A DNA stretch of 64,000 bases from Dehalococcoidia bacterium. Its GTDB lineage: Bacteria > Chloroflexota > Dehalococcoidia > Lucifugimonadales > Australimonadaceae. Location: the NCBI GenBank assembly GCA_965116255.1, contig OZ220670.1:834293-898292 (forward strand), written 5' to 3'. Of this stretch, positions 17,201 to 20,200 are shown one piece after another (position 1 is the stretch's first letter; every line of letters starts with the position of its first letter). A program made the position numbers.

Positions 17201-20200
17201 CCGCTTCACTCGCGCCACCATCGCTAGAGCACCTCCGGCGCAAGCGAGACGATGCGCATGTAGGCCTTGTCGCGCAACTCGCGCGCCACGGGCCCGAATA
17301 TGCGCGTGCCTCGCGGCGATTGCGCATCCGACAGGATGACTGCCGCGTTGTCGTCAAAGCGAATGGTTGAGCCGTCGGGGCGTCGCGTGAGGGCAGTCGT
17401 ACGAACGACGACCGCGCGGACGACGTCACCCTTCTTGACAGCGGCATTGGGCTGCGCCGCCTTGACGGAGGCGACAACGATGTCGCCGACGCGCGCATAC
17501 CGACGTCGCGTTCCGCCCGGGATGTTGAAGCACATGATCTCGCGGGCGCCCGAGTTGTCGGCCACGGTGAGCCGGGAGAAGGGCTGTATCACGACTGCTT
17601 CTCCTTGCTCGCACCATCCGGCTCGTCAACTGAAGGTTCAGCCTCGGCAGGCGCCTCTTTCACCGCGGGCTCTTCGGCTTCGGCGGCACTCTCCTCAGCA
17701 GGCACTTCCTCTGAGGCAGGCTCTTCTGCTGCAGCGGCCTCGTCCGCAACAGGCTCGTCTTCCTCGGAAGCAGCTTCCTCTGCAGGCGCCTCTTCCGCAG
17801 CGGGTTCTTCGTCTTCGGCAGCAACCTCGCCCGCAGGCGCTTCCTCTGAGGCAGGCTCTTCTGCTGCTGCGGCCTCGTCCGCAACAGGCTCGTCCACCTC
17901 GGAAGGCGCCTCCTCTGCAGGCGCCTCTTCCGCAGCGGGCTCTTCGGCTTCGGCGGCAACCTCGCCCGCAGGGGCTTCCTCTGAGGCAGGCTCTTCTGCT
18001 GCAGCGGCCTCGTCCGCAACAGGCTCGTCTTCCTCGGAAGCAGCTTCCTCTGCAGGCGCCTCTTCCGCAGCGGGCTCTTCGGCTTCGGCAGCAACCTCGC
18101 CCACAGGCGCTTCCTCTGAGACAGGCTCCTCCTCTGCAGCGGCCTCGTCCGCAACAGGCTCGTCCACCTCGGAAGGCGCCTCCTCTGCAGGCGCCTCTTC
18201 CGCAGCGGGCTCTTCGGCTTCGGCGGCAACCTCGCCCGCAGGCGCTTCCTCTGCGCCAGACGGCTCGGCTTCGATAGCTACTGCTCGGGTCTCCTCCGCT
18301 ACTTCTTCGACGGGCTGGTCCGCGATGGCGGCCTCGGTTGGGGTGACGTCGACCACGTCCGCCTTCTGTATGAGTTCGGCTACGCGCCAGCGCTTCGACT
18401 TACTGAGCGGGCGCGTCTCCACGATACGCACGACGTCCCCTATCCGGCACTCGTTGCGCTCGTCGTGGGCGGCGAACTTGGACGTCCGCTTGACAACCTT
18501 GCCGTACAGCGGGTGGCGTACGCGATGGTCGACGGCGACGACGATGGTCTTGTCCATCCTATCGCTGACGACACGGCCCAACTGCATCTTGCGGCGTTCG
18601 TTAGCTGCCGGCATTGGTTAGCTTTGCTCCTGTGCTGCCGCGGCGAGTTCGCGCTCGCGGATAACGGTCTTGATTTGGGCCAGCTTGCGACGCGCCTTGC
18701 GCAGCTCGGTCGGGTCGCCCAGCTGGCGCGTCGACGCCTGGAAGCGCAGGCCCAGCAACTCGCGCTCCGTGCTCTCCTCCTCCTCACGCAGCCGCTCGTC
18801 GGAGAGCGCCCGCACCGTTTCGGCGAGAGGTCGTGCCATGGCTACGCTGCCTCGTCCGTTCTGCCGACCGTCCGGGTGCTGACCGGGAGCTTCTGCCCGG
18901 CCTTGCGCAGGGCCTCCCGTGCAACGTCGGCGGCAACGCCGCCTATCTCGAACATGATGCGCCCTGGCCGCACGACGGCAACCCACTGGTCGACGGGACC
19001 CTTGCCGCCGCCCTGGCGGGTCTCGGCCGGCTTCTTTGTAATCGGCTTGGCCGGGAATATGCGAATCCAGACCTTGCCGCCACGACGGAGGTGACGGACG
19101 ATTGCGCGCCGCGCCGCCTCTATTTGCCGCGCCGTAACCCACGACGCGGACATGCTCTTGAGGCCGAAGTCGCCGAACGCAACGGTAGCGCCACGATGGG
19201 CAGCGCCTCGCATGTTTCCACGATGCGTCTTGCGGAACTTCGTTCGCTTAGGCTGAAGCATCGTTGCCCAATTCCTCTGTAGCCGCCTCTGCTTGGGGCG
19301 CAGGATCCTCTGCAGGTTCCGGCACATTTGCCTCCTCTGCAGGCGAGGCCTCTTCCACGGTCGGTGCGGGAGTCTCAGCCACGGGCACGGGCACCTGAGC
19401 CGGCGGCTCAGGTGTCGGCGCGGCGACCGGCGCTGTGTCATCGGTTCCCGCTGGGCGGACGCGCTGTTGAGGCGTAAGGCTACCGCGATATATCCACACC
19501 TTGACCCCGATGCGGCCCATCGTGGTGGAAGCCTCGGCGAAGCCGTAGTCAATGTCGGCGCGCAGGGTATGCAGCGGGACACGGCCGTCCATCGCCTTTT
19601 CCCTACGCGCAATCTCCGCGCCGCCCAATCGTCCCGCGATCTGGACTTTCACGCCGCGCGCTCCGGCTTGGCTGGTGCGCTGCACGGTCTGGCGTACCGC
19701 GCGGCGGTACGCGACGCGACGCTCCAACTGGTCGGCAATGTTGCGCGCGACCAGGTACGCGTCCAGCTCCGGCTGGCGAATCTCGATGACGTTGAGCCGC
19801 ACGCGCCTGCGAGCAGCCTTCTCGAGCGCCTTGCGCAGCTCCTCGACTCGCTGCCCTCCGCGTCCAATGACGATACCGGGGCGTGCAGTGTGGACGCTGA
19901 CCGACAGGTCATGCTCGCGCTCGATGTCGACGCGCGAGATGCCTGCATCCGTATACTGCTCGTCGAGAACGCGGCGGACGGCGATGTCCTCCACGACCTG
20001 CTCGCGGTAGCGGGCAGGCTTGGCAGCGAACCAGCGCGCCTGCCAGTCGCGGACGGGGTGCTCGTTGCCGGGCACCATCACGCCAAGCCGGAAGCCGACC
20101 GGATGCGTCTTGTGCCCCACGCTATGCCTCCTCCACTTCGTCGACGACGATGGTGATATGACTAGACTGGCGCCTGATGCGGCTCACTCGACCCCTCGCC

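What a model noticed while it worked through the whole genome (the two positions that open the first line are those of the whole stretch)
17589..18614. Ribosomal proteins with very long acidic tails (uS17 341 aa)
uS17 has a 255-aa Glu/Ala/Pro tail (96 acidic against 4 basic residues), four times the size of the normal protein, and bS18, uL3, uS5, bL9, bS6, uL13 and uL5 carry 30-120-aa extensions too. Long uS17 is the rule in the SAR202 order, so its ribosome is predicted to wear a large disordered, mostly acidic coat.
Evidence so far: Lengths and charges against Swiss-Prot matches; pI of uS17 4.05. G005 has unalike but equally composed tails on the same proteins. The uS17 open frame is 116-396 aa in 29 of 29 relatives from 12 families, over 160 aa in 25, against 84 aa for the Swiss-Prot match. 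The stop overlaps the rplN start, so the frame is whole. Search 167 listed no such report (listing only).
(Added by a program. Inside this text positions count along the whole contig: contig position 834,293 is position 1 of the stretch shown here. "Call 12" and the like, gene names such as g00115 and contig names such as C1 are that model's own, and its searches are not shown. The text may have been shortened before it was handed on; [...] marks where a part breaks off. The agent that wrote the report below was given it as the finding of a first reader that could run no searches.)

Follow-up and report, generated by a model that had tools for sequence, protein, structure and literature searches.

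The report
Giant acidic tails on ribosomal proteins
In this sponge-associated SAR202-type bacterium the gene for ribosomal protein uS17 encodes a 255-residue, very acidic repeat tail, and about ten other ribosomal proteins carry shorter extensions; the tails change length freely but keep their charge between relatives, so they likely act as a non-specific anti-stick brush on the ribosome, an extreme case of a known but unexplained habit.

Summary
Confirmed. rpsQ (17589-18614, minus strand) encodes a normal uS17 core plus a 255-aa Glu/Ala/Pro tail (net -91), built from 4.5 copies of a 45-aa unit. This genome's ribosomal proteins carry about 950 extra residues (13%), net -194.

Corrections: long uS17 is common but not the rule in the order (100 aa or more in 23 of 43 genomes, 0-42 aa in 16). 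It recurs across Dehalococcoidia, often after a class-wide stub of about 10 aa. The uL5 and uL13 extensions are basic, not acidic.

New here: tail composition is under selection (Glu/Lys exchanges at 0 of about 180 Glu sites, against 36 silent GAA/GAG changes), and charge sign is fixed per site (uS17 negative 34 of 34, uL5 positive 23 of 25). Lengths are labile and uncoordinated, with no set total.

Best reading (0.5): a disordered, non-specific charge brush; tolerated accretion is the main rival (0.3). Presence on ribosomes is untested. Ala/Glu tails on bacterial ribosomal proteins are published (Ntountoumi 2019; Xue 2022); I found no report for uS17 or SAR202. The scan noted this trait before in at least four other Chloroflexota genomes.

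The parts
17589..18614 (-). rpsQ, ribosomal protein uS17, 341 aa
   Evidence: fold matches uS17 chains of solved ribosomes, rmsd 1.1-3.6 A
18357..18614 (-). uS17 core, residues 1-86, basic OB-type beta barrel
18327..18362 (-). Residues 85-96: degenerate copy of the Dehalococcoidia C-terminal stub, pattern V[AP]E[VI]xPxE[IL]
   Evidence: strict pattern in 57 of 110 Dehalococcoidia loci; among 80 named loci the only matches (2 strict, 3 loose) fit the three named Dehalococcoidales-type records that show the stub
17592..18356 (-). 255-aa Glu/Ala/Pro/Val/Asp tail, net -91, no aromatic residue, predicted disordered
17642..18253 (-). Tandem array: 135-bp (45-aa) unit x 4.5; units 1/3 and 2/4 are most alike, i.e. 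a 90-aa block was duplicated
17601..17606 (-). Shine-Dalgarno-like AAGGAG for rplN, inside the last codons of rpsQ, 8 nt before the GTG
   Evidence: read from the sequence; its use is inferred
17224..17592 (-). rplN (uL14), normal length; its start overlaps the rpsQ stop
   Evidence: same 4-nt overlap in 71 of 109 Dehalococcoidia loci
22535..22780 (-). uL3 C-terminal tail, 82 aa, net -25
   Evidence: close strains have 287, 327 or 347 aa, steps of a 20-aa unit
19251..19436 (-). uS3 C-terminal tail, 62 aa, net -13
13878..14165 (-). uS5 C-terminal tail, 96 aa: Arg-rich block, then acidic part, net -15
16719..16901 (-). uL5 N-terminal extension, about 60 aa, net basic (+6 to +7)
5703..5972 (-). 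uL13 C-terminal extension, about 90 aa, mixed charge, net +7
7544..7639 (-). RNA polymerase alpha acidic C-terminal tail, 32 aa, net -10

Best explanation
rpsQ encodes a normal uS17 core followed by a 255-residue acidic repeat tail that is predicted to be disordered and likely works, with the other extensions, as a non-specific charged brush on the outside of the ribosome. Shown: the tail is in frame, made of tandem repeats, changes length in whole codons between strains, and keeps its composition under purifying selection; each attachment site keeps its own charge sign across the order while sequences and lengths turn over. Inferred, origin: codons are duplicated by replication slippage between a class-wide stub of about 10 aa and the last codons, which are pinned by the overlapping rplN start and its ribosome-binding site, so the gene grows from inside and not by stop-codon loss. 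Inferred, function: the polyanionic coil (about 6 nm radius by a random-coil formula) stays off RNA and keeps the basic core, free or assembled, and the particle's surface from sticking to RNA, membranes and neighbouring ribosomes. Any length above a few dozen residues does about the same job, so length drifts.
For: Selection on composition: pN/pS below 1 in 21 of 21 tail comparisons between close relatives (0.09-0.75) and in 6 of 6 gap-free comparisons of repeat units. First-position G/A changes: Glu/Lys 2 in 325 Glu sites against Ala/Thr 33 in 343 Ala sites, p = 2.5e-8, six congeneric pairs. uS17 tails alone: 0 Glu/Lys in about 180 Glu sites while the silent GAA/GAG change occurs 36 times. 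Composition does not follow GC (acid fraction vs GC rho -0.17, n = 45; 36% acidic at 45% GC); Trp, Tyr and Cys are absent from 4,258 pooled tail residues, Phe and His 0.1% each. Sign per site in the order, extensions of 30 aa or more: uS17 negative 34 of 34, uL3 12 of 12, uS3 15 of 16, uL5 positive 23 of 25. Target: 6 of the 11 genes with an acidic C-terminal 40 aa are ribosomal proteins, p = 1e-7, and 2 more are RpoB and RpoC. Cost: 954 of 7,182 residues in 47 located ribosomal proteins (13%), cancelling about 40% of their net positive charge; keeping this against bacterial deletion bias suggests a benefit (inference). In-frame change: three listed indels in the tail are all 15 nt; uL3 moves in 20-aa steps. 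No sequence motif beyond the stub. Physical basis in print: net negative charge keeps cytoplasmic macromolecules dispersed (PMC7229749, abstract and section 11); positive proteins stick to ribosomes (PMC5726854, abstract).
Against: No protein, ribosome or usable RNA data: the one RNA run laid gives only short contigs near the start of the gene and cannot show expression of the tail. Avoiding Lys and aromatics is also what a useless but harmless tail must do. No set point: the nine-protein total varies more than shuffled columns (SD 191 vs 140 aa; 19 genomes; kin not independent), G026 is net +8, and two low-GC order members have no uS17 tail. The long state (75 aa or more) changes at least 16 times on an 82-tip tree. 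Outside the order some uS17 tails are net basic (f48 +2 and +8, f25 +11; 10 of 100 long tails). The added charge is only about 4% of that of the rRNA (about 4,500 nt, recalled). Length correlates with GC (rho 0.55, n = 110; contrasts r 0.26), as a mutational supply of repeats would give. The exact 341-aa sequence is not in the 15-billion protein collection, although six neighbours are; unexplained.
Confidence: 0.5

Rival explanations
1. Tolerated accretion: slippage lengthens exposed termini, selection only removes variants that make the tail sticky or break the frame, and the tail has no benefit.
For: Lengths of 0-277 aa within one order; at least 16 state changes; little co-variation between proteins and no set total; link to GC; loss in low-GC members. 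This genome is probably a sponge symbiont (best named holders are sponge metagenomes), where drift may be strong (inference).
Against: 13% extra ribosomal protein; a fixed but opposite charge sign at different sites, so basic tails are not simply purged; concentration on ribosome and RNA polymerase; persistence in most families of the order.
Confidence: 0.3
2. Specific roles: the conserved proximal pieces (uS17 stub, Arg-rich blocks of bS18 and uS5, basic uL5 arm) bind rRNA, mRNA or a partner, and the acidic parts act as built-in RNA-mimic chaperones during assembly.
For: Class-wide stub that is the whole extension in short forms; Arg-rich proximal blocks conserved in family f1; order-specific basic uL5 arm, 27 of 37 vs 3 of 60. 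In M. pneumoniae some extensions are ordered, cross-link to partners and matter for fitness (PMC9534751).
Against: The uS17 core needs only about 10 negative charges to be neutralised, the tail has 91. The stub is low-confidence in the model and degenerate in this genome. Distal sequences cannot be aligned between genera. This may hold for the stubs without explaining the length.
Confidence: 0.12
3. Osmotic or salt/pressure adaptation: the tails are phosphorus-free fixed anions that hold K+ counter-ions or keep ribosomes soluble in a salty cytoplasm.
For: Counter-ions of rRNA are proposed to make turgor (bioRxiv 10.1101/2023.08.31.555748, passages); side chains almost free of nitrogen.
Against: Adds about 4% to ribosome charge. 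Neither tail length nor tail acidity tracks acidity of the ribosomal cores (contrasts r 0.03 and 0.18, not significant; a weak proxy). The predicted proteome is not acidic (D+E 12.2%, K+R 9.5%).
Confidence: 0.07
4. Assembly artefact, or a mobile or RNA-level repeat read through in frame.
For: Tandem repeats can be mis-counted; no listed contig piece spans the array. One class member (L181) was such an artefact, with an N gap.
Against: Units differ by 3-12 of 135 nt; tails occur in dozens of independent assemblies; no copy elsewhere in the genome longer than 35 nt and no folding signal against synonymous shuffles (z -1.1 to +1.7).
Confidence: 0.01

Closest known systems
Ala/Glu-rich low-complexity regions of bacterial ribosomal proteins (Ntountoumi et al. 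2019, PMC6821194; passages and a term search of the supplement)
   Same: Ala/Glu-dominated, mostly C-terminal, placed at the ribosome surface, function unknown; S2, S3, S6, L3 and L25 are on both lists.
   Different: S17 does not occur in their main text and once in the searchable supplement (a Lys/Ala-rich case; the file was cut when stored); no Chloroflexi or Dehalococcoides hit. Their frequent carriers S16, L17, L19 and L10 are of normal length here. The tail here is three times the core, and about ten proteins carry one.
Extensions of 11 Mycoplasma pneumoniae ribosomal proteins (Xue et al. 2022, PMC9534751; passages and supplement part 1)
   Same: Many extended proteins in one ribosome, mostly predicted disordered, solvent-exposed; described as common across bacteria.
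   Different: There they are shown on ribosomes in cells and three are ordered; S17 is not mentioned in the searched supplement. Here they are repeat-built polyanions known only from DNA.
Long uS17 in solved structures: Thermus 105 aa, M. tuberculosis 135 aa, organelle uS17 up to 336 aa
   Same: uS17 tolerates terminal additions at either end.
   Different: Among the 60 listed matches no bacterial chain exceeds 135 aa; the long ones are organellar.
Acidic disordered solubility tags ('entropic bristles'), the Hfq acidic tail, RimK poly-Glu on bS6, P-stalk tails (recalled; not from any call)
   Same: A tethered polyanion next to a basic RNA-binding core.
   Different: Those are short, enzymatically added or end in a conserved binding motif; no terminal motif was found here.
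IF2 terminal extensions (bioRxiv 10.64898/2026.02.08.704698; abstract only)
   Same: Disordered lineage-specific extensions on the translation apparatus, with effects seen under stress.
   Different: A factor, not a ribosomal protein; IF2 of this genome is short (593 aa as called).

Membership tests
uS17 (Pfam PF00366) | Profile match above the curated cut-off | tested here: met
   112 bits vs 25.9, residues 13-80
uS17 (Pfam PF00366) | Single copy, between rpmC and rplN in the S10-spc cluster | tested here: met
   one match in G000; gene order
uS17 (Pfam PF00366) | OB-type beta-barrel fold | tested here: met
   five strands, pLDDT 85-93 over residues 11-80; Foldseek to uS17 chains
uS17 (Pfam PF00366) | Binds 16S rRNA in the 30S subunit | not testable with these tools
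   inferred from being the only copy
Ala/Glu low-complexity tails of ribosomal proteins (Ntountoumi 2019) | Terminal, mostly C-terminal, region dominated by Ala and Glu | tested here: met
   E+A+P 75% of the tail; pooled order tails E 32%, A 26%. The paper's 70% A+E subclass is not reached (about 60%).
Ala/Glu low-complexity tails of ribosomal proteins (Ntountoumi 2019) | Low complexity by the paper's own entropy cut-off | not tested
   own composition score and Tandem Repeats Finder were used instead
Ala/Glu low-complexity tails of ribosomal proteins (Ntountoumi 2019) | Located at the ribosome surface | not testable with these tools
   no ribosome coordinates on hand; inferred from size and charge
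Intrinsically disordered region | No stable fold | tested here: inconclusive
   low pLDDT and coil, but the full-length model had no alignment; composition fits disorder; no experiment
Mobile or palindromic DNA repeat read in frame (RPE-like) | Dispersed copies and a hairpin signal | tested here: not met
Halophile-type acidic proteome | Proteome-wide excess of acidic residues | tested here: not met
   D+E 12.2%, K+R 9.5% over 1,783 predicted genes; cores basic

The most novel reading that the evidence does not exclude
SAR202-type ribosomes wear a patterned polyelectrolyte brush, acidic at uS17, uL3, uS3, bL9 and bS18 and basic at uL5 and often uL13. It is built from freely exchangeable repeat sequence and selected for physical effect only: it sets ribosome spacing, mobility or protection in very slow-growing ocean bacteria. 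The tail would also be nearly invisible to tryptic metaproteomics (one 209-aa peptide).
Probability: 0.2. Interest if true: 0.75.

Novelty: new variant of a known kind. Interest (0 to 1): 0.45.

Why it matters
Why bacteria pay for low-complexity tails on their most abundant proteins is an open question that the 2019 and 2022 papers both leave open. This lineage is the sharpest case I found: 13% extra ribosomal protein, lengths of 0-277 aa on one essential protein, close relatives with and without tails, and evidence that charge and not sequence is selected. That makes swap-and-scramble tests easy to design, and SAR202 is an abundant ocean group. Practical points: such tails distort length-based gene calls and assemblies, and trypsin proteomics would miss them. 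It is not a new system, and no function is shown.

Tried and rejected
Mobile-repeat origin and RNA structure in the tail: no support. Compensation between tails or a fixed total charge: not found. Raw correlations uS3-uS17 (rho 0.55) vanished in independent contrasts (r 0.04-0.05); uS17-uL4 stayed at class level (r 0.30, p 0.007) but only 35 of 78 contrasts share a sign. Salt proxy: no link. Strain sampling from JGI metagenomes gave only 3 loci, 2 cut by contig ends, too few for statistics. Expression: RNA run X20 has small shares and contigs only, so no claim is made. The single-sequence AlphaFold model misfolded even the core. Overlapping frames (17605-18621 plus; 17267-18277 and 17660-18229 minus) were not chosen by the codon model and are read as shadows. 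The NCBI label 'Alphaproteobacteria' on P0042 is probably a binning error, since it nests in family f1 in the core tree. L181 (G276) was dropped from counts from then on: an N gap fuses its frame to rplN. The second long-uS17 lineage could not be named. Complex prediction was not used: no binding claim is made.

Full report
OBSERVATION. The minus-strand frame 17589-18614 gives 341 aa, pI 4.05. It lies between rpmC and rplN in an intact S10-spc-alpha cluster and is the only uS17 of the 2.02-Mb single-contig genome. Residues 13-80 match PF00366 and fold as the usual beta barrel. The remaining 255 aa hold 95 D/E and 4 K/R and include 4.5 copies of a 45-aa unit; units 1/3 and 2/4 are most alike, so a 90-aa block was duplicated last. 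The stop overlaps the rplN start, and the last codons contain an AAGGAG 8 nt before it; the 4-nt overlap is seen in 71 of 109 Dehalococcoidia loci. Contig pieces from run X1 match most of the tail without mismatch, though none spans it; two sponge-metagenome runs show 15-nt in-frame indels. The best named holders of the DNA are sponge metagenomes. Two same-order relatives, or members of their 90% clusters, are named 'SAR202 cluster bacterium' by NCBI; the genome itself is unnamed.

THE WHOLE RIBOSOME. The 47 ribosomal proteins I located total 7,182 aa, net +288. The extensions are thus about 13% of the protein and cancel about 40% of its positive charge, but add only about 4% to the rRNA charge (rRNA length recalled). 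uL5 and uL13 extensions are net basic. Of 1,783 genes called by my own codon model, 11 end in an acidic, hydrophobe-poor 40 aa: 6 ribosomal proteins, RpoB, RpoC, two dehydrogenase-E1-like proteins (my reading) and a TPR protein (enrichment p = 1e-7). NusA and RpoA also have acidic segments.

DISTRIBUTION. I measured residues beyond an 85-column core model. Order, 43 genomes including this one, 17 of 20 families seen: median 106 aa, 50 or more in 27, 100 or more in 23, maximum 275; families f16, f18, f19 and f20 have 0-38 aa, and two genomes of 33% GC have none. G011, G015 and G027 were left out (contig ends); five of 40 relatives had no match. Rest of the class, 67 genomes after dropping L181: median 24, 100 or more in 11; I saw open-frame lengths when choosing them, so this share is not unbiased. 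Other Chloroflexota classes: 0-65 aa in 27 loci. Named non-Dehalococcoidia: at most 20 aa in 76 loci. A stub of about 10 aa, V[AP]E[VI]xPxE[IL], follows the core in 57 of 110 Dehalococcoidia loci (strict pattern) and is the entire extension in short forms; long tails continue from it. A protein search found 1,998 uS17 clusters of 187-597 aa among 2,011 candidates; of the 120 listed, 15 have a C-terminal tail of 60 aa or more and 105 an N-terminal extension, nearly all from another, unnamed lineage. Among the best 150 profile hits at 50% clustering, a set biased to long tails, 100 of 144 single-domain proteins have tails of 50 aa or more, 90 negative and 10 positive, maximum 370 aa. In relatives, bS18 tails reach 30 aa in 22 of 30, bS6 in 6 of 29, bL9 in 26 of 30 and uL13 in 21 of 30. 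In G028 and G037 the long tail sits on bS6 while bS18 has none, the reverse of family f1.

SELECTION. pN/pS is below 1 in 21 of 21 tail comparisons (0.09-0.75; cores far lower) and in 6 of 6 gap-free comparisons of repeat units; protein-guided alignment of repeats can bias the former downward. The same G/A transition gives Ala/Thr at 33 of 343 sites but Glu/Lys at 2 of 325; in uS17 tails alone there are 0 Glu/Lys against 36 silent GAA/GAG changes. Composition is independent of GC. Charge sign is fixed per site in the order: uS17 negative 34 of 34, uL3 12 of 12, uS3 15 of 16; uL5 positive 23 of 25; uS5 mixed, 11 negative and 9 positive of 21. Length is not fixed: at least 16 changes of the long state on an 82-tip tree, no significant contrast correlation between uS17 and uS3, uL3 or uS5, and totals of 255-807 aa and -226 to +8 over nine proteins in the 19 of 31 genomes with complete data. 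Outside the order some uS17 tails are Lys/Ala-rich and net basic.

MECHANISM. Shown: frame, repeats, in-frame length change, selection on composition, sign per site. Inferred: growth by slippage between the stub and the pinned 3' end; translation and retention on the ribosome; disorder; function. I commit to a non-specific charge brush (0.5): a polyanionic coil that keeps basic cores and the particle surface from sticking, in line with the colloidal view of the cytoplasm (PMC7229749, abstract and first part of section 11) and the stickiness of ribosomes for cationic proteins (PMC5726854, abstract only). Tolerated accretion (0.3) explains the free length equally well and also predicts avoidance of Lys; it explains the cost and the opposite signs at different sites less well. 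Specific binding probably applies, if at all, to the proximal motifs (0.12). Osmotic or salt adaptation has little support (0.07). Mobile DNA and RNA structure are rejected.

KNOWN WORK. Ntountoumi et al. 2019 (passages) report 822 low-complexity regions in bacterial ribosomal proteins, half of them at least 70% Ala/Glu, mostly C-terminal and at the surface; S17 is absent from the main text and appears once, Lys/Ala-rich, in the supplement, which was cut when stored. Xue et al. 2022 (passages, supplement part 1 of 6, one scanned file not searchable) show 11 extended proteins in M. pneumoniae and call extensions common in bacteria. Searches (listings only) gave no paper on long uS17 or on SAR202/Dehalococcoidia ribosomal tails; the library lacks most subscription papers. 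The scan's own notes describe the same trait in other Chloroflexota genomes and led me to the first two papers.

VERDICT. Real, extreme and partly undescribed (uS17 as carrier, the class stub, sign per site, the selection signal), but a variant of a known habit with no shown function. Interest 0.45.

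Noticed in passing
proteins P0047-P0153: A second, unnamed lineage carries a 100-190 aa N-terminal uS17 extension, acidic first and then Lys/Arg-rich next to the core (median net -13): an independent version at the other end.
   Followed up: partly
proteins P0034, P0035, P0037: N-terminal instead of C-terminal acidic extension in cores that fall among the order's sequences in a weak 84-aa tree.
   Followed up: no
window 16719-16901 and L111-L143: The basic N-terminal arm of uL5 is nearly order-specific (27 of 37, against 3 of 60 in the rest of the class); a possible marker and RNA binder.
   Followed up: partly
L244-L273 (bS18), L111-L143 (uS5): Conserved Arg/Asp-rich blocks between core and acidic spacer in family f1.
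   Followed up: no
L160:2491-4134; L162; window 7544-7639: NusA (547 aa) has a long acidic segment and an Arg/Gly-rich end; RpoA, RpoB, RpoC, peptide deformylase, GyrA and a TPR protein also have acidic ends.
   Followed up: no
G000:C1:1460371-1461618 and 1763112-1764218: Two proteins that look like metal-binding ABC solute receptors (my reading) with long His/Asp/Glu repeats.
   Followed up: no
L159 (G000:C1:1680167-1680625): The IF3 frame seems to leave the family sequence before its usual end: frameshift or sequencing error.
   Followed up: no
window 17592-18356: Codon use in the tail differs from the cores (CCT 21 of 30 Pro codons, GAA 31 of 82 Glu), and AGGAG is about six times denser than in cores.
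   Followed up: no
window 38624-46145: A cluster of small and large membrane-protein genes that looks like an Mrp/Mnh-type cation antiporter operon (my reading).
   Followed up: no
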